The position numbers and the translations under genes are program-made. From positions 10,092 through 74,091 of the IMG/VR virus record IMGVR_UViG_2933206877_000003: DNA of 64,000 bases; one strand, 5' to 3'. The notes beneath the pieces were generated by a model. The model was given only the letters and a program-made list of their open reading frames with translations. It ran no database searches and had not been told where the DNA came from. This document shows positions 45,074 to 62,382 of this stretch, one piece after another (positions within the stretch are counted from its first letter, which is position 1; each line of letters begins with the position of its first letter). This stretch comes from a virus. Its lineage: Duplodnaviria > Caudoviricetes.

Positions 45074-46213
45074 TCACACCTGCCGCTCGTGCAAGAGGCG
45101 GCACGCGGACGCGGCATCGTGCAGGACCTCGTCGAGGCTTACGCCGCTGGCGAGCGCGGTCAGGACGCGGGCGTGCTGATTCTCGACATGGGCGGCCAGT
45201 TCGCTGCGAGGGAACTGCGGAGCACCAGAGCAGTAGGGGCAAGCCTGCGTGTCGTTGGCGCCCAACGAGCCTTGCTCGGGCGGCTCGATGCGGTACCTGA
45301 GGCAGCCGCACTTCAGACAATGGCGGAACAGGGCATCGCTATGTTCAGGGTCGATGTGCCCGCACGCGCAGGGCGTGTACTCCGGTCCCTCGGGGGGCGG
45401 CAACTGGTCGTCGATGACGGGGTACACGGCCACGGTGTCGGACCAGTGGAAGCCGTGCTCGTCGATGTGGTCGCCGCGGTGCTGCGCAGCTCGGATGCAC
45501 TGGCGCTTGTCGTTGCTGAAGCGGGTGTATAGCGCCGAGCACTCGGCGGCCGCCACGTCGTCCACCCCTGACAGATCTCTGGCCTGCGCGTTCGCCTCCG
45601 AGTGGACGACTTCTGCGTCTGCGGCTGCGGAGTCGTCCAGTTCGTCGCGCAGCTCGGCGCCGGCGGCCCGCACGAGGAACATCGACGCGCCATGCGCGGC
45701 CTGCCAGCGGTCTGCCAGCTGGTAGGCCCGCCCGGCCGCCCGGCGCGCGCGATCCCGCTCTCGCTGAAGCTGTCCAACAACCAGCATCACAGCGTCGACG
45801 GCCTCCTGGGGGACGTCGACCAGGCAAAGGTGCTCGTCTCGAGCGAAGTTGATCGCCCGCTCGATCCGCCGGCGGAGGACCTCTCGTTCGGCGCCGGGGC
45901 CCGCCATCCAGCCGGGCACGTCGAAGGCCTCGACGATGTCGGCGGCCAGCTGCTGGCGAGCAGCGGTTACCTCGTCGGCCCACAGGATGCGGGTGGCGCC
46001 GCCGTGGCCGTGGATCTTTTCGAAGGGTGCCGAGCCCTTGTTGTGCCAGACGTCGGTCTTCGGCTCGTGCATCGGCGGCTGGTCGAGCCAGTGGGTGACG
46101 ACCCAGCCGTCGGAGAACTGCACGCCCTCGGCGATGACACCCTCACCGGAGATGCCGGACACGTCCTCGTCGCGCTGGGCGACGAAGGTCCGCGGGAAGC
46201 TCGGTTCGCTCAT
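45074..46213 (-). CDS. Mosaic hypothetical protein
   Basis: RDEDVSGISGEG.IAEGVQFSDG...IHGHGGAT domain plus Cys modules. Confidence 0.7.
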   Translation of the reverse strand: MSEPSFPRTFVAQRDEDVSGISGEGVIAEGVQFSDGWVVTHWLDQPPMHEPKTDVWHNKGSAPFEKIHGHGGATRILWADEVTAARQQLAADIVEAFDVPGWMAGPGAEREVLRRRIERAINFARDEHLCLVDVPQEAVDAVMLVVGQLQRERDRARRAAGRAYQLADRWQAAHGASMFLVRAAGAELRDELDDSAAADAEVVHSEANAQARDLSGVDDVAAAECSALYTRFSNDKRQCIRAAQHRGDHIDEHGFHWSDTVAVYPVIDDQLPPPEGPEYTPCACGHIDPEHSDALFRHCLKCGCLRYRIEPPEQGSLGANDTQACPYCSGAPQFPRSELAAHVENQHARVLTALASGVSLDEVLHDAASACRLLHERQV

Positions 46214-46470
46214 CGGTTGTACTCCCCTGCTTCGGCACGGTCGATCAGGAGCTGGATGTAGGTGCGGGCCTTGCAGAGGTCCTCGATGCCGTTCTTCTTC
46301 CGCCAGCGGAGCAGGTATTTCAGGGCGTTGCCCTCGTAGAAGTCCAGGCTGAAGGCGTTGATCACGTCGAAGGGCTGCATTCCGGTGCCGCGGTAGTGGT
46401 CCGGTGTCCAGTCCTTGGGCCCTGGCGCCAGCGGCGTGCTGGCGGCTTTCACGGTCTTCTCATCGGCCAT
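46210..46470 (-). CDS. DUF3310-family protein
   Basis: PDHY...GNALKYLLR..KKNGIEDL.KA..Y. Confidence 0.85.
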   Translation of the reverse strand: MADEKTVKAASTPLAPGPKDWTPDHYRGTGMQPFDVINAFSLDFYEGNALKYLLRWRKKNGIEDLCKARTYIQLLIDRAEAGEYNR

Positions 46471-47975
46471 CAGGCGATTCCTTCCGGCTGGAGCGAGCTC
46501 GTGCGCTGGCGCGGGATGGGCACGGTGAGGGTCGTCTCCGTCTCGGGGTCGAGCAGCTTCGCGACGGGGATCTGCACGGTGTCGTCGTCCAGCAGGCCGG
46601 CGGGTGGGCTCACGGCAGCCGGCTCCATGAGGGCGACCTCGGCGCCGTTCTGGCGGGTGCCCCAGCCTGTGCGGGCGCAGGTGGCCATGCCGTACCAGCG
46701 CATGGCGCGCAGGACGGTCCAGCCGGCGACCACCGCGAGAGGCATGAGCAGCCAGGTGACGAGCCGGCCGCCGAAGGCCTCGTCGTCCCGGGCAATGGAC
46801 AGATACCGCAGACCCTGCGCCCAGCCGATCAGGAACGGCACGACCAGGAAGCTGGCGGGCGGGGTGTGACCGTACGCGGCGGGCTCGACGACCAAGAGCC
46901 ACCCGAGGACGGCGGTGGACAGGGCGACCTGGAACCAGCGCAGCAGGTGGGCCCAGTACGCCCAGCTGGTCAGCGGCAGGTACCGGAACCGCCACACGGA
47001 GCGGATGGTGGAGCCGCGCATCCAGCGCAGGTACATGCGTAGGAAGTGGGATGGCCGCTCCGGAAGGGCGGTGAAGACGATCGCGGTCGGCTGTTGCACC
47101 GTGCGGCCGCCGAGCAGCGCGTACAGGGTGAGTAGGGAGTCGTCGGAGAACATGACCGGGCGGCCCATGAAGCGCTCGTTCAGGTAGCCGTCGAGGTTCT
47201 CCCGGATGATGGCGGCCCGGTAGGCGGCCAGCGGTCCGGAGTTCACGAGGACGGCGCCCATCGCGGACAGTGCGGAGCGATCGGTGAGCTGCCCAGTCGT
47301 GAACCACAGGTCGGTGATGCGGGTCAGGAGGTTCGCACGGTGGTTGGTGGCGAGGACGACCCCGGCGACGGACTGGACCCGGGCCTGCGCGAAGGGGAGC
47401 AGCAGCTCCTCCAGAGCGTTCGGGGCGAGGCTGGAGTCGGAGTCGACGGTGACGTACACGTCCGCTTGCGGGCTCGCTGTGACGGCGGCGGCCTGAGCGT
47501 GGCGCTTGCCCTGGTTGTCGGTTCGCTGCCACGTGGTGACGATGTCCGCCGCGGCCGCCGCCTTCGTCCACCAGGAGCGGACGGCGCTGTAGTCGCCGCT
47601 GGACGAGCCGTCATCGACGACGTGCACGGAGTCGGGGCGGCGGGTCTGGGCGAGGATGCTCTCCAGGCCGAGCCGCAGGTAGCCGGGGTCCTCGTTGTAG
47701 ACGGGCAGCAGGATGGCGACATGCAGGGCGCCGAGCTGCCGGCGGGACCGCGGAGTGGTACGCCGGGGACGCTCCCAGTGGTACATCACGGTCTGCGTGA
47801 TGAGCAGCAGGAACGTGACGCCCCAGACGGCGGCGAGCCGCGAACTGGTGGGGCCGCCGTACTGGGCGGCGGCTATGCCGTGCTGGGCGGCCCACCCTGC
47901 GGCGCCGGTCAGGCATATCGCGCCGGTGAGCAGGACGCCGGAGCGGTGCCGGTGCGCGGTCAGGGGTCTGGTCAC
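46470..47975 (-). CDS. Membrane GT2 glycosyltransferase, hyaluronan synthase/NodC-like
   Basis: PVYNE, VDDGS, GKRHAQ, TVDSD, SGPLAAYR, SDDSLLT, YLRWMR; N- and C-terminal TM helices. Confidence 0.88.
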   Translation of the reverse strand: MTRPLTAHRHRSGVLLTGAICLTGAAGWAAQHGIAAAQYGGPTSSRLAAVWGVTFLLLITQTVMYHWERPRRTTPRSRRQLGALHVAILLPVYNEDPGYLRLGLESILAQTRRPDSVHVVDDGSSSGDYSAVRSWWTKAAAAADIVTTWQRTDNQGKRHAQAAAVTASPQADVYVTVDSDSSLAPNALEELLLPFAQARVQSVAGVVLATNHRANLLTRITDLWFTTGQLTDRSALSAMGAVLVNSGPLAAYRAAIIRENLDGYLNERFMGRPVMFSDDSLLTLYALLGGRTVQQPTAIVFTALPERPSHFLRMYLRWMRGSTIRSVWRFRYLPLTSWAYWAHLLRWFQVALSTAVLGWLLVVEPAAYGHTPPASFLVVPFLIGWAQGLRYLSIARDDEAFGGRLVTWLLMPLAVVAGWTVLRAMRWYGMATCARTGWGTRQNGAEVALMEPAAVSPPAGLLDDDTVQIPVAKLLDPETETTLTVPIPRQRTSSLQPEGIA

Positions 47976-48142
47976 TGCTCTCCCGCCCCTCGGCCGTGGC
48001 GGAAGCCGAGGCGGATGCAGATGGCGCCGACGGTGACGACGGCCAGGGCGGCGGCGAGCAGCCACCAGCCGGTGACGGCGACTCCGCCGACGACGAGGAC
48101 TCCGGCGGTGCCGGTGCGGGCGAGCTGTGCGTTGTCGGACAC
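47972..48142 (-). CDS. 56-aa LAXTG sortase-signal-like membrane mini-protein
   Basis: MSDNAQ-LARTG-hydrophobic stretch-RLGFRHGR; stop overlaps GT start. Confidence 0.7.
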   Translation of the reverse strand: MSDNAQLARTGTAGVLVVGGVAVTGWWLLAAALAVVTVGAICIRLGFRHGRGAGEQ

Positions 48143-48152
48143 GGGTTCTCTT

Positions 48153-48380
48153 TCAGGGCTGCTGGTGGTCGGGGTCGTGCGTGCCGAGCGCGCCGATGGC
48201 GCGGCAGGTGCTGAGGTCGTCTGATCTGGCACGGCGCCGGGTGCGGCGCGAGCGGGCCCGGGCGGCCAGGTCGTCGCTCGCGGCGAGCATGCCGAGGGCG
48301 CAGACCACGACCAGGGCCAGGCCGAAGGAGCCGATGGCGCCCCCGACGGCGGCCACGATGAGGACCTGGAGCGGCGTCAT
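48153..48380 (-). CDS. Small membrane protein
   Basis: N-terminal TM, basic tail. Confidence 0.55.
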   Translation of the reverse strand: MTPLQVLIVAAVGGAIGSFGLALVVVCALGMLAASDDLAARARSRRTRRRARSDDLSTCRAIGALGTHDPDHQQP

Positions 48381-48619
48381 CGCTGCCTCCGCTGCCGGGT
48401 GGCGGCGTAGATCGAGTAGGTGGCGCCTCCGGCGCACATGGCGCCGCTGACGAGGAAGGAGAGCGCCCACAGCCGCAGGTCGCGGTAGGCGGCGTCGAGG
48501 CCGCCGAGCAGGCACGCGAGGGCAAGCAGCGTGCAGAACCAGTGGTCGGCCAGGCCGAAGCAGAGGCCTGCGACGGCGGCCAGGGCGATGCCGATCGCGA
48601 TCAGGCTCAGGGTGGACAT
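48377..48619 (-). CDS. Small multi-TM protein
   Basis: Three hydrophobic segments. Confidence 0.6.
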   Translation of the reverse strand: MSTLSLIAIGIALAAVAGLCFGLADHWFCTLLALACLLGGLDAAYRDLRLWALSFLVSGAMCAGGATYSIYAATRQRRQR

Positions 48620-48828
48620 GGGGTGCCTCGGGTGGGGTTGTAGTTGTCGATGGGCGGGAGGGTGTCGATGTCGCGGATGCGGCCTCGGAGGATGACCGCT
48701 CGGCCTTCGGCGATGTCGTCGGCTGTGCGGAGGTCGTCTTCGTCTGGCTCGTCTTCCGCGCAGGGGCAGTAGCCGTGGGCGTCGCAACCGCCGTGCGGGC
48801 AGATGAAGCGGGCGGGTTGCTCGGTCAC
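48607..48828 (-). CDS. Hypothetical protein
   Basis: Coupled ORF. Confidence 0.5.
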   Translation of the reverse strand: MTEQPARFICPHGGCDAHGYCPCAEDEPDEDDLRTADDIAEGRAVILRGRIRDIDTLPPIDNYNPTRGTPCPP

Positions 48829-49532
48829 GACGCTCTGGCCGCTGCGTTGGGGATGAGGCCGAGGCGCTCACACACGCGCTGGACGGATGGCACGCTGACG
48901 GCCATGGCGCGAGCGATGGCGATATCGCTCAGCCCGGACGCCCACAGGCTGTAGACCCGCCGCTCGTGTGGCGTTTCACCGCGGGACTTCGGGCGGGGCT
49001 TGCTGCTCGCCTGTGTGCTCCGGGTCGGTGCAACCACGCGGGGTGCGGCGGCCTTCTTCTTCGGCGCGATGACCTTTCTCTTCGTGCTGGACCGCCTGTT
49101 GGCGGCGCCTGTGGCCTGGCTGAGGCGCTCGCGGCGTACTTCGGCGCTCCAGCATGTGGAGTCGACGCGCTCCCCGAACCACAGGTGCCGGAGCAGGGCG
49201 GTGTATGTACCGCAGTCCGGGGCCGGCCCGGTGAAGACGAGGGCAGGCTTGTCGCTGTGGCCGGGGGCGCTGGCGTCGAGACGCCAGCGTTCGTGCGCGG
49301 TGAGTCCGGCGACGACTCCGTCGCGGCGGACCTCGGCCTGGCCGTTCTCCAGGTTCTTCACGTTGGCCAGGCAGGCGGTGCGCACGGGGCAGCGCACGGC
49401 GCAGATGAGGCGCGCGTTGTGCTCGTGCTCCTGGTTGGAGAATGTGTCCGGGTCCTCGGTGCGGCAGGCCATGTGTGCCATCCAGTCGAGGCGGTGGCCC
49501 CCGGTGTCGGGTACTGATCCGGTGTAGGCCAT
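48825..49532 (-). CDS. WhiB-family regulator with C-terminal HTH
   Basis: W...AC...C..RCPV...C...GVVAGLT..ER; GLSDIAIARAMAVS. Confidence 0.85.
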   Translation of the reverse strand: MAYTGSVPDTGGHRLDWMAHMACRTEDPDTFSNQEHEHNARLICAVRCPVRTACLANVKNLENGQAEVRRDGVVAGLTAHERWRLDASAPGHSDKPALVFTGPAPDCGTYTALLRHLWFGERVDSTCWSAEVRRERLSQATGAANRRSSTKRKVIAPKKKAAAPRVVAPTRSTQASSKPRPKSRGETPHERRVYSLWASGLSDIAIARAMAVSVPSVQRVCERLGLIPNAAARAS

Positions 49533-49535
49533 GGC

Positions 49536-49901
49536 TCACTCCGCGGTCTTCCGGCTGCCCTTGGCGGCTTTGCGGATGGTGACCTTGCGGTCGCGGCGGC
49601 GGACGGCGTCGGCGAGGTGGTCGGAGACCCGCAGTCGGACGACCTGGTGGGCGGCTGAGGTGAACGTCTCCCCGGTCTGGGGGTTGCGGCGCGTGGCCCG
49701 CTTGACGCGGTGCGAGATGAACGTGACGAAGTTGGTGATCGCCACGTCGTGACCGGTCGCGTTGGCACGGGCGATGACGTCGAAGGTGGTCATGATCGTG
49801 TCGCGGACGGCGCTCGGAGTGGTGCCGAGGTCCGCGGCGACCGCCTCGATCAGCTTGGTGGTGTTCAGCCGCTCGGTGATACGGGTGGGCTGGTTCGGCA
49901 T
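49536..49901 (-). CDS. HU/IHF-family DNA-binding protein
   Basis: LIEAVA...ITNFVTF...RRNPQTGE. Confidence 0.88.
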   Translation of the reverse strand: MPNQPTRITERLNTTKLIEAVAADLGTTPSAVRDTIMTTFDVIARANATGHDVAITNFVTFISHRVKRATRRNPQTGETFTSAAHQVVRLRVSDHLADAVRRRDRKVTIRKAAKGSRKTAE

Positions 49902-49952
49902 ACGAAGCTCCAGGAGTTGGAGCGCGGGGCAGCGACGCCGCCCCGCGCGGTG

Positions 49953-50522
49953 TCAGTGCTTGGGGGCGTCGAGCTGGGGGACGCTGGCGTAGAGCTTGAT
50001 CGGCTGGCTGCTCACCAGGAATGGCTGGTCGGTCTCGACGAGCGTCCCGTTCGTGGTGAAGAAGAACACCCCGCCCTCGCCGCCCTCGTCGGGGCCGTAG
50101 GAGCCGTCGTCGCCGATGGCGTTGTTGGTGCAGGTGATGTTGTCGCCGCCGTAGCCGCAGTGGACGTTGACCTGGGTGGAGGTCATCTGCGAGCTGGTCG
50201 AGGAGACCTTGCCGCGGATGACGTAGTAGCCGATGACCTTGTCGGTCATCCCCGCGAACACATAGACGTAGTTGGTGTTGCCCTTGGAGTTGTACTGGGT
50301 GAGGCGCCGGGCCAGGTTCTTGCGCTCCAGCGGGTCGGAGGGCATCCCGTTCGCGTACGGGTACGGCACGGCCTGGTTGAACTTCTGGGCGGTGCCGGCG
50401 GCGAGGTCGTTCTGCTTGGCCTGCTGCTTGCTGGCGTTGTTGTCGCTGGTGCAGCCGGCGAGCGCGAGCAGGGCGGCTGCCAGAGCGACGGCGGCCGCGC
50501 GGCGACGGTAGGTGGTGGGCAT
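49953..50522 (-). CDS. Lipoprotein
   Basis: Lipobox LAGC; DDGSYG...FFFT. Confidence 0.8.
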   Translation of the reverse strand: MPTTYRRRAAAVALAAALLALAGCTSDNNASKQQAKQNDLAAGTAQKFNQAVPYPYANGMPSDPLERKNLARRLTQYNSKGNTNYVYVFAGMTDKVIGYYVIRGKVSSTSSQMTSTQVNVHCGYGGDNITCTNNAIGDDGSYGPDEGGEGGVFFFTTNGTLVETDQPFLVSSQPIKLYASVPQLDAPKH

Positions 50523-50525
50523 GGG

Positions 50526-50969
50526 TCAGCTCCCGCAGTAGGAGTCGGAGTCGATGCGTGCAGGCAGGCCCTCGGGCACCCAGGGCGCGCCGAGGGTCGA
50601 GGCGGCGTCGGCGTTGTACTGGGCGACGTCCTGGAGGCAGTTGTTCTGGGCGCCCAGGTAGTTGGCCTGGTCCTGGCCGGTGGCGCTTTCGGCGTCGGCC
50701 TGGTGCTTGAGGGTGGCGACGATGCCCTGGTCGGCCTGGATCTGCTGGAACTCGGCGTTGAACGTGGCGGACCAGTGCTCGCGGTTCTTCGCGCCGTTCT
50801 GGTCACGGCGGACGTCGCCGGCGCCCTTGGCGCCGGAGGTGAAGACGCCGAAGGCCCACAGGAGCGAAGCCACGATCAGGGCGACGGTGAGGGTGGCGAT
50901 CACGAGGACGGTGCCGGCGCCGAGTCCGGTGGCGGCGTCGCCGACGTCGCGGCGTGTGATGCGGGGCAA
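50526..50969 (-). CDS. Membrane-anchored protein
   Basis: N-terminal TM, coiled coil, C...YNA motif. Confidence 0.7.
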   Translation of the reverse strand: MPRITRRDVGDAATGLGAGTVLVIATLTVALIVASLLWAFGVFTSGAKGAGDVRRDQNGAKNREHWSATFNAEFQQIQADQGIVATLKHQADAESATGQDQANYLGAQNNCLQDVAQYNADAASTLGAPWVPEGLPARIDSDSYCGS

Positions 50970-56760: not shown

Positions 56761-57272
56761 CAGTCCTCGCTGTCGTGGTCGCGGGCGGTGTCGAGGACCG
56801 CGGTGAGTCCGTCGGAGAGGGCCTGCATCTCGTGCCGCATCTCGGTCACGGTGAGGTCCGGGCCGCGCATCAGCCGCTGCGCGTACTCCCGCCAGTGCGC
56901 GAGGCCCGCGCGGAGCCGGGCGGTCTCGATGAAGGCGAGCATGCCGCCGGTCAGCCGCAGTGTGGAATCGGCGAGTTCGAGCTGTCCGCCGTCGTCGAAC
57001 GTGCCGTGTGCGGTCCGCTGGAGGTGCAGGAAGCGGAGCGCATCGCGGACGGCGTCCTCCTGCTCTCTGTTGGGCAGCTCCAGGTGCACGATGCGCACCT
57101 TCACCGACGGCTCCTTCTCCGTGCCCGGCGCGGGTTCCGTCCGCTCGATGTGCGCGAACTCGCCGACGAACAGCCGCCGCGCACCGGGCTGGTCGTACAC
57201 GGGCCGCACGTGCGACTCCAGCGCCTCCTGTGCGGACGCCGAAACCTTGGCGTCGAACTTCAACTGGGTCAC
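56760..57272 (-). CDS. Hypothetical protein
   Basis: AAGGAG RBS; coupled. Confidence 0.65.
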   Translation of the reverse strand: MTQLKFDAKVSASAQEALESHVRPVYDQPGARRLFVGEFAHIERTEPAPGTEKEPSVKVRIVHLELPNREQEDAVRDALRFLHLQRTAHGTFDDGGQLELADSTLRLTGGMLAFIETARLRAGLAHWREYAQRLMRGPDLTVTEMRHEMQALSDGLTAVLDTARDHDSED

Positions 57273-57754
57273 GACGTCGTCTCCTTGGGCTGGGTCAGGC
57301 GCCACACGCGGATGACGGCGCCGGGGTGCGAGAGGGTGTCGGCACCGGTGAGCACGTACCGCTTGGCAGCGACCGTGTCGGTCACGACGGAGTCGTCGAG
57401 GAGTACGCCCGCGTCTTTCAAGGCGTCTTGGGTCGAGCGGAGCAGCTTGTCCGTGTCCGGCTTGCCGGTCGGATGCTGCGGAGCGGACGGCTTGACCACG
57501 CCCGCGTTCCGGCCGGTGCCGAAGTGGCTCTTCGACCGGGGCAGCGTGAAGACGACCTCCAGCCGGACGGCCTCACGGAGCGGCTGCCACGCCTCGTCGT
57601 AGGCGAGTGCGTCCAGCGCGGCCGACTTCACGGCCTCGCGCCACGGCTTCACCTTGGCTGACGACTCGTACAGCGCACCGGCGGCATTGCGGTTCTTCGA
57701 GCCCTGCGGGCCCGGGGTGCCGTGCACGGTGATGGAGAAGGCGGGAGCGGTCAC
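57269..57754 (-). CDS. rusA: RusA-family Holliday junction resolvase
   Basis: GTPGPQGSK, KPWR, KPDTDKLLRSTQDAL, DDSVV. Confidence 0.9.
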   Translation of the reverse strand: MTAPAFSITVHGTPGPQGSKNRNAAGALYESSAKVKPWREAVKSAALDALAYDEAWQPLREAVRLEVVFTLPRSKSHFGTGRNAGVVKPSAPQHPTGKPDTDKLLRSTQDALKDAGVLLDDSVVTDTVAAKRYVLTGADTLSHPGAVIRVWRLTQPKETTS

Positions 57755-58110: not shown

Positions 58111-59021
58111 TGCTCTTCACCGCCCTCGGCGTCACGTGCGCCAGAGCCGGGCTGGGCAGCGGCCGGCCAGGATGCGGCGGCCGCCGGGTGCTCGCCATCG
58201 CCGGGCTGGTCGTCGCGGGAGATGACGGTGCCCCGGATGACGGGCGGCACAGTGTGCGCGTCGTCGAGGTCGTCGTCGTGCTGGATCAGCTCGGCCAGCT
58301 CGGTCGACGTGGGCACGACCTTGCGGAGCCGGAGCACCGCACTCTTGGCCCACATGGCGTCGAAGTCGGTGTGCCAGGCCGAGTCCCTTTTGCCGTTGCT
58401 CTCGGCCTTCTTGTACGCCTTGGAGAACTTGTTGCGGATGCCCTCGGCCTGTGACCGGTTCAGGATGATCACCTGGGAGCGGCGGCCGTCGATCCACGCG
58501 AAGGCGTAGGCCAGGATGACCTTCCCTCGCTCCTCGTCGGTGAGGTCCACGCGCGGCTTGTGGTAGAAGTCGCGCGGGCTCGGCTCGGTCGGGGTGTAGT
58601 CCCAGGCGTCGTTCTCCCGAACCCAGCCGAAGTGCACCGAGTCGACGCGCGGGTGTCGGTACATCAGCTCGATGTAGCCCTCGTACATCGGCTGGAAGGT
58701 GGCCACGCCGCTGTAGGGGACGATGGCGGCCTGGCGGCCGTCGGGCTCCAGCCCGAACCGTGCGCAGGCGAGCAGCGCGGTATGGATGGACGCCGGGGTG
58801 CAGTTCTTCAGGTCCTCCATGCGGGCCTGCGCGACGGCCATGAAGTGCGCTCGGTCCACGTGCCGGGGCAAGGCGTCCGTGAAGTAGGTCTCGCGGCGTA
58901 GCAACCACTGTCGGGCGCTGTCGTTCACGGCGAGGTCGGTAACCGGCTGGTGGTCCGGCTGAGGCTCGTCCGCACCGGCGGCGGCCTTCACGCGGTCCTT
59001 CAGGCTGTCGGGCATGGTCAT
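58107..59021 (-). CDS. recT: RecT-family ssDNA annealing protein
   Basis: CTPASI...GLEP...IVPY...YEGYIEL...W.TDFDAMWAKS. Confidence 0.92.
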   Translation of the reverse strand: MTMPDSLKDRVKAAAGADEPQPDHQPVTDLAVNDSARQWLLRRETYFTDALPRHVDRAHFMAVAQARMEDLKNCTPASIHTALLACARFGLEPDGRQAAIVPYSGVATFQPMYEGYIELMYRHPRVDSVHFGWVRENDAWDYTPTEPSPRDFYHKPRVDLTDEERGKVILAYAFAWIDGRRSQVIILNRSQAEGIRNKFSKAYKKAESNGKRDSAWHTDFDAMWAKSAVLRLRKVVPTSTELAELIQHDDDLDDAHTVPPVIRGTVISRDDQPGDGEHPAAAASWPAAAQPGSGARDAEGGEEQ

Positions 59022-60262
59022 CCTTCCGAGGGCACGCGGAGCACGCGGGCCCGGTACTTGCGGTAGGTCTCGGGGTGCTCCTGGGCGAGCCGCTCGGTGT
59101 CGACGGCTGGGACCAGGTGGGTGTACTGGGCGGCGAGGTCCGGCTCGGCGTCGCGTAAGCGAGCGGCAGCGAACTGGCCGTTGCGGCGCCAGGTGTAGGC
59201 CGGGCGGCCGCCGATGGTGGCGACCTCGGCCTCCCCGGCGTTGGCCCGCAGTTGGTTTTCGGCCTCGGTGAGCTGGTCCCCGAGGTAGGCGATCTCTTCC
59301 TTCAGTTCGCGACGGCGCTGCTTCAGGAGCATCGTCTCGACCGGATCGACCTCGACGGTGGCTTCCTCGCGGGTGTCCCACAGCCGGGCGAGCAGCTCGG
59401 CCGTGGCCTGCGAGCCGTCCGGCTTCGGCGGGACGCCGGCGAGTACGTGGTTGTGCCAGAACCGGTCGACGGCGTCGGCGAGCAGGGCGCTCAGTTCCTC
59501 GTCGCGCTCCAGGCGGAACCACGTCAGGTCGTCATCGATGAGACCGGCGACGTACGCGCACCGGTAGCCCGTGACGGTCAGGTACCAGTGGGCCTGGATC
59601 GCGGGCCGATCCGGTGCCTGCTCGCCGTGCCAGCCCTCGATGCGGGCGGAGCGCCAGGTACGGGACTTGCACTCCAGTACGCCCAGCTCGTCACGGGCCT
59701 GGTCGTCGGGCGCGACGGTGAGCCGGTCGGGGTTGGCGATCCAGTGCGGGTGGTCGACATGCTGGAGGGTGCCCGGCGAGTCGATGACCGTAAGACCGGA
59801 GTCCTCGGCGAAGAACTCGGCGACGAGGCCCTCCAGCCGGTGGCCGCGCCGGGCGGCTCTCTCCAGCCGCGCATTGTGGCGCTCTGAGGCCTGGCCGGTC
59901 TTCTCCAGCCAGACATGCAGCGGTCCGCGGTAGGCGTCCATGCCGAGGATGGCGGCCACGTCCGAGCCGCCGGCACCACCGGCCCGCGCTTCACGCCAGG
60001 CTTCCTCGGAGGCTCCAGCGGCGAGCAGTAGCCGCGCGGTCGGGGCGACCGGGTCGGAGACGCGGATGGTCGTCTCTGACCCGGTCGCGGTCCCGGACGG
60101 CGCAGGCAGGGTCTCGGGGGCCGGGGTCAGTCGTCGTGACGGCCCCTCTCCTGCCTTCGTTCCCGTTGCGGCCGCGAGCAGCTCCGCTGCGGGTGGCGTT
60201 GACGCCGTCCGGGAGGTGTGGGACTCGCCCGGAGCAGGCGGGGTCTCAGGTACCGAGTTCAC
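59018..60262 (-). CDS. YqaJ/lambda-exonuclease-family recombination nuclease (repeat-derived N-terminus; start uncertain)
   Basis: GGSDVAAILG, GHRLE, ANPD, LECK, QAHWY. Confidence 0.9.
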   Translation of the reverse strand: MNSVPETPPAPGESHTSRTASTPPAAELLAAATGTKAGEGPSRRLTPAPETLPAPSGTATGSETTIRVSDPVAPTARLLLAAGASEEAWREARAGGAGGSDVAAILGMDAYRGPLHVWLEKTGQASERHNARLERAARRGHRLEGLVAEFFAEDSGLTVIDSPGTLQHVDHPHWIANPDRLTVAPDDQARDELGVLECKSRTWRSARIEGWHGEQAPDRPAIQAHWYLTVTGYRCAYVAGLIDDDLTWFRLERDEELSALLADAVDRFWHNHVLAGVPPKPDGSQATAELLARLWDTREEATVEVDPVETMLLKQRRRELKEEIAYLGDQLTEAENQLRANAGEAEVATIGGRPAYTWRRNGQFAAARLRDAEPDLAAQYTHLVPAVDTERLAQEHPETYRKYRARVLRVPSEG

Positions 60263-61069: not shown

Positions 61070-61440
61070 CAGCGGCCCCCAATCCGGGCCTTGTTGCTGG
61101 GCCGGTTCGCCGCGCGCGGCGCACTGCGGCGGATCTTGTCCGCTCGCACCCAGACGCCCCAGGTAAGACCGGAGTCGTTGTCCCAGTGGACGAAGACCAT
61201 CGGCTGGTCGTGTGCCTTACCGGCCAGGCAGACGGCGCTCGGCTCGCCGGTGAACAGCCCGGGGACGTGCTGGGGCTGATCGACGGCGACGGTGCCCTGG
61301 CGGCCGCAGGCGTGTACGACGCGGGAGCCGACGGGGTGCTGCTCGGCGAGCTCGCGCAGCCGGGCTCGTACGGCGTTGCCCTCCGGTCCCTTTCCGTCGG
61401 GCATCACGGTGCCCCGCCAGTCGAGCGTCAGGGCGCTCAT
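61069..61440 (-). CDS. Hypothetical protein
   Basis: GGAGG RBS. Confidence 0.6.
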   Translation of the reverse strand: MSALTLDWRGTVMPDGKGPEGNAVRARLRELAEQHPVGSRVVHACGRQGTVAVDQPQHVPGLFTGEPSAVCLAGKAHDQPMVFVHWDNDSGLTWGVWVRADKIRRSAPRAANRPSNKARIGGR

Positions 61441-62096
61441 GACGCCTCCAGTTCCAGGGTGGTGGGGGTACCGACGTAGCGGGCGCGGACGCCGTGGGTG
61501 CCGTCGCGGGTGAATGCCTCGGACTCCCAGCGGCCGACCGGGCGGAAGGCCTTGAAGGAGCCCGTCCGGAGGCGGTAGGCGCTCTGCCGGGCTGTCGGGC
61601 CGCTGTCGTAGAAGGCGACTACGCCCCACTCGCCGGGCGTCTCGCGCAGTGCGGCCGCGCGCTCCCGGTAGGTGTTGCGGGCCACGACCCGTGACATGCG
61701 ACGTGGCTGTGCCGGGAGGGTGAGAGCGCCGGTCGGGAACCAGCCGTTCAGGAGGCAGATGGCGATTGCCGTCGCGGTCGAACGGACGCCGAGTCGTCGC
61801 ATGGCCCCTTGCCGGTGCTTCCTCACGGATTTGGGGTCGATGCCGAGCTGCGGGCCGATCCGCTCACAGGTCTCGCCGTTGGTAGTCCTGATGAGGACCT
61901 CCAGCTGCCGACGGGTGAGAGGGCACTCCACGTCGGGGTCCCACTCGGCCAGCACCTGCGGCGACTTGAGCCGGTCGATTTCATCCAGCAGCTGCCGGAC
62001 AACGACCGCGGACGGGTGGCTGGGGTTGCGCTCCACGCTGGTCCGAACGCGGGCGAGGGCGAGTGGACTGAGCGGTTTAGCGGTCACGGCGGTCAC
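61437..62096 (-). CDS. LuxR-type HTH regulator
   Basis: LTRRQLEVL...GET..RIG.QLGI..KSV..H...RRLGV. Confidence 0.85.
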   Translation of the reverse strand: MTAVTAKPLSPLALARVRTSVERNPSHPSAVVVRQLLDEIDRLKSPQVLAEWDPDVECPLTRRQLEVLIRTTNGETCERIGPQLGIDPKSVRKHRQGAMRRLGVRSTATAIAICLLNGWFPTGALTLPAQPRRMSRVVARNTYRERAAALRETPGEWGVVAFYDSGPTARQSAYRLRTGSFKAFRPVGRWESEAFTRDGTHGVRARYVGTPTTLELEAS

Positions 62097-62382
62097 CGCC
62101 CCGTACGCGCTCCAGGTCACGCAGGCGGGCCAGGAGGGAGCGGATCTCGTCCCGCTGTCGGGCGACCTCACCGACGTACCGGGGCAGGGCTTCGCGGGCG
62201 TGGCCCACGAACTGGACGACGGGCAGCTGGTATTCGTCGGACGCCGTCTCCAGGAAGCTGATCGGCCCGACAGCTTCGGGCACGCCGTAGTCGTTGGGGA
62301 TCAGCTCCCAGGGGCCGGCGGGGACGGCCGCGATGTGCTGCTGGGTCAGCTTGAGGTAGTCGTCGGTGAGCGGCTCAGGCAT
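62077..62382 (-). CDS. Hypothetical protein
   Basis: PAGPW...FVGHARE.LP. Confidence 0.6.
   Translation of the reverse strand: MPEPLTDDYLKLTQQHIAAVPAGPWELIPNDYGVPEAVGPISFLETASDEYQLPVVQFVGHAREALPRYVGEVARQRDEIRSLLARLRDLERVRGGDRRDR

What the first reader, a model, noticed from the sequence alone, without database searches (positions are those of the whole stretch)
46470..48142. Stand-alone LAXTG sortase-signal peptide coupled to a hyaluronan-synthase/NodC-like glycosyltransferase
Seen: a 56-aa ORF consisting of 6 residues + LARTG + hydrophobic helix + basic tail, with no signal peptide or passenger domain; its TGA overlaps the GTG of a multi-TM processive-type GT2 whose QxxRW motif is replaced by MYLRW. 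Established: LAXTG is the class E sortase motif of Streptomyces (e.g. long chaplins). Inference: a two-gene surface-remodelling system in which the peptide is a wall-anchored acceptor/primer or accessory subunit for a polysaccharide that masks receptors, or a sortase decoy.
Basis: partly seen in the sequence, partly recalled or inferred. Interest (0 to 1): 0.8.

Follow-up and report, generated by a model that had tools for sequence, protein, structure and literature searches.

The report
Sortase-signal miniprotein paired with glycan synthase
A Streptomyces prophage carries a conserved two-gene unit in which a 56-residue membrane peptide that looks like a bare cell-wall sorting signal sits in front of a hyaluronan/chitin-synthase-like enzyme; the pairing is real and widespread in actinomycetes, but what it does is untested.

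Summary
On the minus strand, a 56-aa ORF (47972-48142: 6 residues, LARTG, hydrophobic stretch, basic tail) overlaps by GTGA a 501-aa membrane GT2 (46470-47975).

The GT2 is homologous to Chlorella-virus hyaluronan synthase (profile E 2e-36; Z 29.8) and partly to NodC. It keeps DSD, SDD, RW and WGTR, reads MYLRW instead of QxxRW, and ends right after WGTR, about 100 residues short of the Cv-HAS construct.

The pair recurs in phage Kromp (gp78/gp79), 16 of 16 IMG/VR loci and 17 of 18 full-length genome loci. LAxTG was present in all 120 closest peptides. Among 76 small representatives the columns read L / A or P / anything / T / G, the sortase pentapeptide pattern. LPxTG and LAxTG variants also precede GT2 homologues of 30-49% identity in non-phage chromosomal settings; four such peptides lack the motif.

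Against a classical sortase substrate: no signal peptide, 32 rather than 23-26 residues from motif to tail, and no [A/S]D after TG.

Best reading: an N-out single-span partner of the synthase carrying a probable class E sortase site. Neither binding nor cleavage is shown. I found no paper on it; NCBIfam only names a sibling family.

The parts
47972..48142 (-). Gene of the 56-aa miniprotein (GTG start, TGA stop): N-tail, LARTG, beta-hairpin, TM helix, basic tail
   Evidence: ORF and translation. Similarity to Kromp gp78 starts at this start codon. Homologues of 54-57 aa are found in 16 of 16 viral loci, and 252 proteins match at E<=0.01.
48146..48154 (-). Purine-rich Shine-Dalgarno-like tract (GAAAGAGAA) 3 nt upstream of the GTG start; it overlaps the stop codon of the upstream gene
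   Evidence: Read from the sequence. Comparable GGAG/AGGA/GGGAGG tracts lie upstream in the related loci.
48110..48124 (-). LARTG pentapeptide (residues 7-11), a candidate class E sortase site
   Evidence: 120 of 120 close homologues carry LAxTG. Columns in 76 representatives: L 56/61, A47/P10, x entropy 3.37 bits, T 59/65, G 63/66. LAXTG is the SrtE signal in PMC5148588.
48071..48100 (-). Predicted beta-hairpin (residues 15-24, turn at the conserved GG) between the motif and the TM helix
   Evidence: AF2 model of the peptide with a 58-row alignment: strands 15-18 and 21-24, mean pLDDT 77.7. G19 is present in 65 of 75 representatives.
48002..48064 (-). Predicted single transmembrane helix (residues 27-47)
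   Evidence: AF2 helix 27-47, with block pLDDT 85-95.
47975..48013 (-). Basic C-terminal tail (R44...Q56), predicted cytoplasmic
   Evidence: R44 is present in 74 of 76 and R48 in 70 of 74 representatives. Mean net charge is +3.5 for the tail against -0.08 for the N-tail, and the tail is the more positive in 69 of 76.
47972..47975 (-). GTGA: the peptide stop overlaps the GT2 start
   Evidence: An RTGA overlap is seen in 16 of 16 viral loci. The same applies to Kromp gp78/gp79.
46470..47975 (-). Gene of the 501-aa membrane GT2 of the hyaluronan synthase / chitin synthase / NodC superfamily
   Evidence: Pfam GT2 families. NodC partial match of 130 bits. Cv-HAS at E 2e-36 with the profile. AF2 pLDDT 80.8. 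Foldseek top 13 are HAS. VIA Z 29.8, rmsd 2.8 A, 371 residues aligned.
47436..47444 (-). DSD (residues 178-180), the DxD metal/donor motif
   Evidence: Invariant in all 35 GT sequences. Aligned to DSD of Cv-HAS.
47139..47147 (-). SDD (residues 277-279), aligned to GDD of HAS (position of the catalytic base)
   Evidence: D278 and D279 are invariant in 35 of 35. Alignment.
47022..47036 (-). MYLRW (residues 314-318), in place of Q(Q/R)xRW
   Evidence: R317 and W318 are invariant. M is found in all 28 phage-clade sequences and Q in all 7 distant cellular relatives. Aligned to QQTRW of Cv-HAS.
46653..46664 (-). WGTR (residues 438-441), aligned to WGTR of Cv-HAS
   Evidence: Nearly invariant. Aligned to AWGTRGG at 458-464 of the 570-residue Cv-HAS chain.
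46473..46625 (-). Non-hydrophobic C-terminal tail (residues 451-501), predicted disordered, holding the clade-conserved KLLDPETETTL stretch. There is no counterpart of the roughly 100 residues that follow WGTR in Cv-HAS.
   Evidence: pLDDT is below 50 for 451-501. Alignment columns 601-676. The HAS match ends at chain residue 466 of 570.

Best explanation
This is a conserved two-gene membrane module that Streptomyces temperate phages share with actinomycete chromosomes.

(1) The enzyme. The 501-aa protein is a membrane-integrated GT2 of the hyaluronan-synthase / chitin-synthase / NodC superfamily. It most likely uses UDP-GlcNAc to make a beta-linked GlcNAc-containing oligo- or polysaccharide at the cytoplasmic face and passes it outward. 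The homology is shown; the product is inferred.

(2) The miniprotein. The 56-aa protein inserts without a signal peptide, like a phage Pf3-coat-type protein. Its acidic or neutral N-tail faces out, one TM helix crosses the membrane, and its basic tail stays inside. This topology is inferred from charges and the AF2 model. It works as a stoichiometric partner of the synthase. That is inferred from co-conservation over 28-83% GT identity and from start/stop overlap. It possibly supplies membrane helix mass that the enzyme lacks, because the enzyme stops right after the WGTR loop.

(3) The sortase site. The exposed N-tail carries L-A-x-T-G, which I read as a genuine sortase site. Host class E sortase would cut between T and G. 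The TM stub would stay with the synthase, and the 8-10-residue N-peptide would be passed to the wall precursor or another nucleophile. This is inferred from the conservation pattern only.

(4) Role in the phage. The pair lies in the long early operon, so the glycan would be made during lytic growth or after induction and remodel the hyphal surface. The purpose is unknown.

My odds: functional partnership 0.75; GlcNAc-type glycan synthase 0.7; motif really used by a sortase 0.5; all together about 0.4.
For: **Pair conservation**
- Kromp gp78/gp79 has the same pair with a 4-nt overlap.
- 16 of 16 IMG/VR loci have it.
- 17 of 18 full-length loci from genome contigs have it.
- More distant GT homologues also have an upstream homologous miniprotein: L041 (49% id, LPFTG), L053 (45%, LALTG), L050 and L051 (41%, LAVTG and LAATG), L057 (34%, LARTG), L058 (33%, LPTTG) and L098 (30%, LARTG).

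**Motif**
- 120 of 120 close homologues carry LAxTG.
- 59 of 78 representatives carry L[AP]xTG, 13 of them LPxTG.
- Column entropies are 0.53 / 1.13 (A47, P10) / 3.37 / 0.56 / 0.34 bits. With R44, R48, G19 and G39 these four conserved motif columns (L, A/P, T, G) are the most conserved apart from the start Met, and they lie in a tail that AF2 leaves as coil.
- LAXTG is the class E signal, cleaved at T-G (PMC5148588 passages).
- Three lysogen genomes hold 7-11 sortase genes each. The provirus holds none.

**Topology**
- The C-tail averages +3.5 against -0.08 for the N-tail. There is one helix, residues 27-47.

**Enzyme**
-.
- The HAS match ends at WGTR, and the remaining 51 residues are predicted disordered.

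**Position in the phage**
- The pair lies inside a minus-strand block of early genes that includes RecE-like, RusA, sigma-like, WhiB and HU genes. In Kromp it lies 19 kb downstream of the repressor in the right arm.
Against: - No direct evidence of binding or cleavage.
- There is no signal peptide.
- The motif lies 32 residues from the first Arg of the tail. In 13 actinobacterial sorting signals read here the distance is 23-26, and all 13 have [A/S]D after TG, which the miniprotein lacks. Those 13 were found with one NCBIfam model and may be a biased sample.
- Sorting-signal models hit only below threshold. TIGR01167 hit 8 of 47 members (best E 0.0085), and PF00746 hit 12 of 47 (best E 0.068).
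- Four distant paired miniproteins lack the motif (L049, L059, L060, L066), although their genomes have sortases.
- One full-length GT locus (L035) has no peptide within 13 kb.
- Start/stop overlaps are common in this operon; the GT also overlaps the next gene. The overlap alone therefore says little.
- dN/dS of the peptide gene is a weak 0.72.
- Q-to-M in QxxRW and the missing C-terminal part leave activity and processivity open.
Confidence: 0.4

Rival explanations
1. Plain accessory subunit. The miniprotein is only a small membrane subunit that stabilises or activates the synthase, as IcaD does for IcaA. The LAxTG stretch is then a contact or capping element that resembles a sortase motif, and no sortase is involved.
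For: - The pairing persists where the motif is absent (L049, L059, L060, L066).
- There is no signal peptide, the spacing is atypical and there is no AD after TG.
- Sorting-signal models stay below threshold.
- The synthase ends after WGTR, about 100 residues short of the Cv-HAS construct.
- Precedent: IcaA activity is low without the 101-aa two-TM IcaD (PMC7674160 passages).
Against: - A packing element would not be expected to keep L, T and G nearly fixed, allow only A or P at position 2, and let position 3 vary freely.
- AF2 leaves this stretch as low-confidence coil outside the helix.
- No sequence similarity to IcaD or PgaD was seen among the families listed.
Confidence: 0.3
2. Peptide-handled glycan. 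The N-terminal peptide becomes covalently joined to the glycan, as a primer or a pilot at its leading end. Sortase then staples the glycopeptide to peptidoglycan, so the module is a sortase-dependent polysaccharide anchor.
For: - It fits the strict pairing of a bare sorting signal with a synthase, in cellular contexts too.
- The short N-tail is conserved, with a Ser/Asp or Asp/Tyr start.
- A review of the viral HAS/CHS asks whether a pilot protein attached to the leading end guides the chain through the wall (PMC5408694 passage).
Against: - No enzyme for such a linkage is evident.
- Solved HAS structures are annotated with a GlcNAc primer, not a peptide (entry titles).
- The active site is cytoplasmic, whereas the N-tail is predicted outside.
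- Motif-less relatives exist.
Confidence: 0.1
3. Sortase decoy. The miniprotein acts on its own as a competitive substrate that occupies host class E sortase or lipid II. It thereby blocks anchoring of chaplins and other surface proteins during infection. The neighbouring GT is functionally separate.
For: - The peptide is a minimal sorting signal without a passenger.
- Class E sortases are needed for chaplin display and development (PMC5148588 passage).
- The phage carries other development-related genes, WhiB and a sigma-like gene.
Against: - The peptide is almost never seen without the GT in the loci examined, and the pair also occurs in non-phage chromosomal settings where a decoy makes little sense.
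Confidence: 0.08
4. Not a gene. The 56-aa ORF is a chance frame in GC-rich DNA upstream of the GT.
For: - High-GC DNA gives many spurious ORFs.
- dN/dS is 0.72.
- No expression data (one search lists no RNA holder).
Against: - Length, start position, motif and tail are conserved across 252 proteins and down to about 30% GT identity.
- Similarity to Kromp starts at the start codon, and it is annotated as gp78 in Kromp.
Confidence: 0.02

Closest known systems
Class I hyaluronan synthase of Chlorella virus (PDB 7sp7 and related) and Xenopus HAS1
   Same: - Homologous over two membrane helices' worth of N-terminus, the GT-A domain, the interface helix, the following TM helices and the WGTR loop: profile E 2e-36; Z 29.8, rmsd 2.8 A over 371 residues.
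- DSD, (G/S)DD, RW and WGTR are aligned.
- It is also virus-encoded and expressed early, producing surface fibres (PMC5408694 passages).
   Different: - Only 17-20% identity.
- M replaces the first Q of QxxRW in the phage clade.
- The protein ends after WGTR, with a disordered tail instead of the roughly 100 further residues of Cv-HAS. From recall, not from a call, those residues hold the last two TM helices.
- The product is unknown.
- HAS has no known miniprotein partner (recalled).
NodC chitooligosaccharide synthase (NCBIfam TIGR04242)
   Same: Best family-level sequence match for the catalytic domain: E 1e-37, residues 84-326 against model positions 48-287.
   Different: - 130 bits against a cut-off of 550, and only 240 of 395 model positions are matched, so it is not a NodC equivalog.
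- No nod genes are nearby.
IcaA/IcaD (and PgaC/PgaD) poly-N-acetylglucosamine synthases
   Same: A membrane GT2 that depends on a small co-encoded membrane protein (PMC7674160 passages). The PgaC_IcaA model hits the GT at E 3.5e-12.
   Different: - 46 bits against a cut-off of 422.
- IcaD has 101 aa and two TM segments and lies after icaA. Here the partner has one helix, lies before the GT and carries LAxTG.
- No sequence similarity was seen.
Cell-wall sorting signals of class E sortase substrates (such as the long chaplins ChpA-C)
   Same: LAxTG, then a hydrophobic segment, then a basic tail (PMC5148588 passages; examples read).
   Different: - No signal peptide and no passenger domain.
- 32 rather than 23-26 residues from motif to tail, with a predicted beta-hairpin inserted.
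- No [A/S]D after TG.
NCBIfam NF058583, 'LAXTG motif-containing small protein' (LAXTG_small_WW)
   Same: A curated family of about 54-aa proteins with LAXTG and a WW-type membrane segment. 25 of 47 diverse relatives and 6 of 14 close relatives of the window peptide hit it.
   Different: - The 10 members scanned singly score 11-15 bits or do not hit, against a cut-off of 65; the best E among 47 is 3.3e-05. The window peptide does not hit at E<=10.
- No genome of 401 reached the cut-off.
- Five other small LAxTG proteins found with it had no GT2 within about 4 kb.
- I found no paper on it.
Pf3 coat protein (recalled, not tested)
   Same: A phage-encoded protein of about 44 aa that inserts N-out/C-in without a signal peptide. 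It serves as a model for how the miniprotein's N-tail could reach the outside.
   Different: It is a structural virion protein of a filamentous phage, with no sortase motif. The comparison rests on memory only.

Membership tests
HAS / chitin synthase / NodC superfamily of membrane GT2 | Homology of the GT-A domain plus the following membrane helices to solved members | tested here: met
   Cv-HAS E 2.1e-36 over profile positions 41-449. Foldseek top 13 are all HAS. VIA Z 29.8, rmsd 2.8 A, 371 aligned.
HAS / chitin synthase / NodC superfamily of membrane GT2 | DxD and (G/S)DD catalytic motifs | tested here: met
   DSD 178-180 and D278-D279 are invariant in 35 of 35 and aligned to HAS.
HAS / chitin synthase / NodC superfamily of membrane GT2 | Canonical Q(Q/R)xRW | tested here: not met
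   The window has MYLRW. M is found in 28 of 28 phage-clade sequences and Q in 7 of 7 distant relatives, while R and W are invariant. I therefore file it in the superfamily by homology only, not as a proven processive synthase.
HAS / chitin synthase / NodC superfamily of membrane GT2 | WGTR-type loop after the TM helices | tested here: met
   W438-R441 are nearly invariant and aligned to AWGTRGG of Cv-HAS.
Class I hyaluronan synthase proper | Full C-terminal membrane part after WGTR | tested here: not met
   The match ends at chain residue 466 of 570. Window residues 451-501 are non-hydrophobic with pLDDT below 50.
NodC (TIGR04242 equivalog) | Score above the curated cut-off | tested here: not met
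   130.1 bits against 550.
Sortase substrate (cell-wall sorting signal) | L[AP]xTG pentapeptide | tested here: met
   LARTG at residues 7-11. 120 of 120 close homologues and 59 of 78 representatives carry the pentapeptide.
Sortase substrate (cell-wall sorting signal) | Hydrophobic segment and basic tail after the motif | tested here: met
   Helix 27-47. Tail net charge +3.5 on average.
Sortase substrate (cell-wall sorting signal) | N-terminal secretion signal peptide and passenger domain | tested here: not met
   Only 4-6 residues precede the motif in 117 of 120 homologues. No hit of the profile was the C-terminus of a large protein, apart from one decayed fusion.
Sortase substrate (cell-wall sorting signal) | Usual actinobacterial layout: TG followed by [A/S]D, 23-26 residues to the basic cluster | tested here: not met
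   All 13 of 13 reference signals have this layout. The miniprotein has TG-TAG and 32 residues to R44. The reference set came from one model's hits.
Sortase substrate (cell-wall sorting signal) | Match to the curated anchor models TIGR01167 / PF00746 | tested here: inconclusive
   Only sub-threshold hits: 8 of 47 members (best E 0.0085) and 12 of 47 (best E 0.068).
Sortase substrate (cell-wall sorting signal) | Cleavage between T and G and transfer by a sortase | not testable with these tools
   Needs biochemistry or genetics. Sortase genes are present in the lysogen genomes but absent from the provirus.
NF058583 LAXTG_small_WW | Score of 65 bits or more | tested here: not met
   No hit for the window peptide at E<=10. 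Relatives scanned singly score 11-15 bits.
IcaD/PgaD-type accessory subunit | Sequence homology to IcaD or PgaD | tested here: inconclusive
   No such family is among those listed for the peptide or its relatives. Only the top 25 families per scan were shown.

The most novel reading that the evidence does not exclude
The module is a sortase-dependent way of fixing a polysaccharide to the wall. The synthase's GlcNAc-type chain becomes joined to the miniprotein's 8-10-residue N-tail, as a primer or a pilot at the leading end. Class E sortase then transfers the glycopeptide to peptidoglycan. Phages borrow this to coat infected hyphae.
Probability: 0.1. Interest if true: 0.95.

Novelty: new variant of a known kind. 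Interest (0 to 1): 0.65.

Why it matters
- **Sortase biology.** Sortases are known to anchor secreted proteins that have a signal peptide and a passenger domain. A conserved family of proteins that are nothing but a sorting signal, always beside a glycan synthase, would extend what sortases act on. At the least it would define a new kind of small synthase subunit.
- **Phage biology.** It would be a bacterial-virus counterpart of the chlorovirus hyaluronan and chitin synthases, whose purpose is still open.
- **Testability.** A cultured phage (Kromp) and a laboratory host (S. lividans) carry the pair, so the hypothesis can be tested directly.

Tried and rejected
- **Complex prediction.** Binding therefore remains untested.
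- **Expression.** No RNA holder was listed; the single DNA holder may be the source sample.
- **Sortase presence versus motif.** All 10 genomes with distant pairs, motif-less ones included, have sortase matches, so this test discriminates nothing.
- **dN/dS of the peptide gene.** The median is 0.72 over 66 pairs. I consider this uninformative at GC3 around 0.9.
- **Natural peptide-GT fusion P0138.** It is a deletion plus frameshift, so it gives no topology evidence.
- **Distant peptide in phages.** tblastn of the LPMTG peptide P0145 against 50,697 phage records found no match.
- **ESM Atlas.** It returned only unnamed small-protein clusters, plus one low-score cluster (0.77) where 14% of members carry Gram_pos_anchor, which is a lead only.
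- **Promoters and terminators.** No promoter-like site lies in 45800-50200. The only two terminator-like sites are on the plus strand near 50103-50121, about 2 kb away and on the other strand from the pair, so nothing marks the pair as an independent moron.
- **Phage genes near distant pairs.** tblastn of 45 window proteins against eight 12-20-kb regions matched only the GT.
- **Holin reading.** Only 3 of 47 members gave weak holin-family hits, and Kromp has its own annotated holin.
- **Literature.** Searches found no paper on a stand-alone sorting-signal protein paired with a glycosyltransferase. Supplements were not seen.
Full report
**1. What is there**

All genes of the finding are on the minus strand.
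- A 56-aa ORF (47972-48142) starts at GTG. It reads V/M-SDNAQ, LARTG, about 32 mostly hydrophobic residues, then IRLGFRHGRGAGEQ.
- Its stop overlaps, as GTGA, the start of a 501-aa protein (46470-47975).
- A longer 86-aa reading is possible. However, DNA similarity to Streptomyces phage Kromp begins exactly at the 56-aa start, and a purine-rich tract precedes that start.
- LAxTG occurs 8 times in the 127,996 six-frame residues of the window. By eye, only this one is followed by a hydrophobic stretch, a basic tail and a stop.

**2. Where it lies**

- The window is part of a 74-kb IMG/VR provirus record.
- GC3-based gene calling shows nearly all genes on the minus strand. Structural genes lie at about 1.8-21 kb and early genes at 23-62 kb.
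- Near the pair are WhiB, an HU-like protein and DUF3310. Further upstream are RusA, a RecE-like exonuclease and a sigma-like protein.
- Kromp is a temperate phage with a tyrosine integrase and an immunity repressor. It carries the same pair as gp78 (56 aa, 'hypothetical protein') and gp79 ('glycosyltransferase'), 19 kb downstream of the repressor in the long right-arm operon.
- No promoter-like site lies in 45800-50200. The only two terminator-like sites lie on the other strand near 50103-50121.
- The GT also overlaps the next gene, so overlap by itself is not special here.
- Among 50,697 phage records only Kromp has a close GT homologue.

**3. The enzyme**

- Sequence: Pfam gives GT2 families. 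NCBIfam gives a partial NodC match of 130 bits against a cut-off of 550, and weaker PgaC/IcaA.
- Homology to HAS: a profile of 35 homologues matches Chlorella-virus hyaluronan synthase at E 2e-36 over profile positions 41-449 and chain residues 40-466 of 570.
- Structure: the AF2 model has pLDDT 80.8 and pTM 0.80. The 13 best Foldseek hits are hyaluronan synthases. VIA-align gives Z 29.8, rmsd 2.8 A and 371 aligned residues.
- Invariant motifs in 35 of 35 sequences: NED, DDGS, DSD, D278-D279 and R317-W318. WGTR is nearly invariant.
- First deviation: the first residue of QxxRW is M in all 28 phage-clade sequences and Q in all 7 distant relatives.
- Second deviation: the protein ends just after WGTR with a 51-residue tail of pLDDT below 50, whereas the Cv-HAS construct continues for about 100 residues.
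- Conclusion: it belongs to the HAS / chitin synthase / NodC superfamily by homology, but it is neither a HAS nor a NodC proper. A GlcNAc-containing product is inferred from the family, not shown.

**4. The miniprotein family**

- A profile of 14 peptides finds 252 proteins at E<=0.01. The 120 listed have 54-79 aa and come mostly from Streptomyces. All 120 carry LAxTG (x = R 79, K 13, Q 12, H 11, S 5), with 4 or 6 residues before it in 117.
- An exhaustive profile search of 1.84 billion representatives gives 78 hits. 76 of them have at most 100 aa, 59 carry L[AP]xTG, and 13 of those carry LPxTG. None is the C-terminus of a large surface protein. The single long hit (P0138) is a decayed deletion-plus-frameshift fusion.
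- In the 76 small representatives the five motif columns read L 56/61; A 47, P 10; entropy 3.37 bits; T 59/65; G 63/66. With R44, R48, G19 and G39 the four conserved motif columns (L, A/P, T, G) are the most conserved apart from the start Met. This is the signature of the sortase pentapeptide, including the A/P alternative.
- The LPxTG forms come from Actinomadura and from Micromonospora/Solwaraspora.
- AF2 predicts residues 1-14 as coil, a beta-hairpin at 15-24 and one helix at 27-47.
- The C-tail is more positive than the N-tail in 69 of 76, on average +3.5 against -0.08. This predicts N-out/C-in, the orientation a sorting signal has after secretion.

**5. Co-occurrence**

- The peptide precedes the GT in 16 of 16 IMG/VR loci with GT identity 62-83%, always with an RTGA overlap.
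- It precedes the GT in 17 of 18 full-length loci from genome contigs. L035 has none within 13 kb, and L037 is a GT fragment.
- In samples of actinomycete genomes, more distant GT homologues also have an upstream homologous miniprotein:
  - With the motif: L041 (49% id, LPFTG), L053 (45%), L050 and L051 (41%), L057 (34%), L058 (33%, LPTTG) and L098 (30%).
  - Without it: L049 (56%), L059 and L060 (33-34%) and L066 (28%).
  - For 13 of the 14 other GT hits examined (28-38% identity; the 14th is L066, counted above) no such ORF was seen; for L071-L077 the peptide profile alone found none.
- Flanks of four distant pairs hold GH26, MMPL, a sigma factor, BTAD/AAA regulators, a GT4 and an integrase-family gene. 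None of 45 window proteins other than the GT matches there.
- The pair is therefore a cellular module that phages also carry.

**6. For and against a true sortase site**

For:
- The conservation pattern described above.
- LAXTG is the class E sortase signal in Streptomyces, cut at T-G (PMC5148588, passages read).
- Three lysogen genomes hold 7-11 sortase genes each. The provirus holds none.

Against:
- There is no signal peptide or passenger domain.
- Thirteen actinobacterial sorting signals read here all have TG followed by [A/S]D and 23-26 residues to the basic cluster. The miniprotein has TG-TAG and 32 residues to R44. That reference set came from one model's hits; a 14th row that passed my filter, L087, is not a sorting signal by eye.
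- Anchor models hit only below threshold.
- Motif-less paired relatives exist in genomes that have sortases.

**7. What is already known**

- NCBIfam release 20 holds NF058583, 'LAXTG motif-containing small protein' (54 positions, cut-off 65 bits).
- 25 of 47 diverse and 6 of 14 close relatives hit it, the ones scanned singly at only 11-15 bits. The window peptide does not hit.
- No genome of 401 reached the cut-off. Its sub-threshold hits are mostly C-termini of large LAxTG proteins, plus other small LAxTG proteins that had no GT within about 4 kb and no sortase on the same stretch.
- Small LAXTG proteins have thus been noticed by curators. I found no paper on them or on a pairing with a synthase. 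Supplements were not available.

**8. Mechanism**

- I commit to a two-part membrane machine: a HAS/NodC-type synthase plus an N-out single-span miniprotein partner. The exposed tail of the partner is a class E sortase site.
- Shown: homology, motif conservation and co-conservation.
- Inferred: topology, physical association, cleavage and product.
- The fact that the synthase stops after WGTR suggests the miniprotein helix may complete its membrane domain, much as IcaD boosts IcaA (PMC7674160, passages). This is inference only.
- Chlorovirus HAS and chitin synthase, expressed early, cover infected cells with fibres of unknown purpose (PMC5408694, passages). They are the nearest viral analogy.
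- Rivals: a plain accessory subunit (0.3), a peptide-handled glycan anchored by sortase (0.1), a sortase decoy (0.08) and a spurious ORF (0.02).

**9. Limits**

- No RNA data were listed.
- The host genome of this provirus was not available.
- The comparisons with Pf3 coat and with the last two TM helices of HAS rest on recall.

Noticed in passing
window 46473-46625 (GT residues 451-501): The disordered cytoplasmic tail of the GT holds a stretch (KLLDPETETTLTVPIPRQRT) that is conserved across most phage-clade homologues and absent from the distant cellular ones. It could be a docking or regulatory peptide.
   Followed up: no
window 49953-50522 and 50526-50969 (minus strand): A 189-aa protein with a lipoprotein-type signal (…LALAGC…) and a 147-aa protein with an N-terminal TM segment lie just upstream of the HU and WhiB genes. 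Their GC3 is unusually high at 0.95-0.97. The first has only a weak PHROG match of unknown function. Together with two small membrane ORFs at 48153-48871, this stretch is rich in envelope proteins.
   Followed up: partly
window 48825-49532 (minus strand): The WhiB-family protein is long (235 aa). The WhiB domain covers only residues 17-85, and the C-terminal end looks like a helix-turn-helix.
   Followed up: no
L099-L103 (G486, G498, G584, G570, G502): A second kind of signal-less small LAxTG protein (58-74 aa). It has a Gly/Ala/Thr-rich N-tail of about 20 residues, then LAxTG, a TM segment of ordinary length and a basic tail. No GT2 lies within about 4 kb, and no sortase gene lies on the same stretch.
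   Followed up: partly
L105 11047-12060: In one chromosomal copy of the pair (GT 56% identical, peptide without LAxTG), a GH26-like glycoside hydrolase gene follows the synthase directly. This recalls synthase-hydrolase pairs of other exopolysaccharide operons.
   Followed up: no
L029 versus L015: A contig labelled as a Kofleriaceae MAG (90,308 bases) carries the same peptide and the same GT N-terminus as an IMG/VR viral contig of 90,318 bases whose relatives are all Streptomyces. It is probably a mis-binned phage contig.
   Followed up: no
protein P0138: A 367-aa database protein begins with the miniprotein (residues 1-41), continues in the GT from about residue 45, and then goes out of frame. 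It is a decayed copy of the pair.
   Followed up: yes
window 57269-57754, 59018-60262, 61437-62171 (minus strand): RusA-like resolvase, RecE-like exonuclease and a sigma-factor-like protein lie in the early region. No integrase was identified among the ten proteins scanned.
   Followed up: partly
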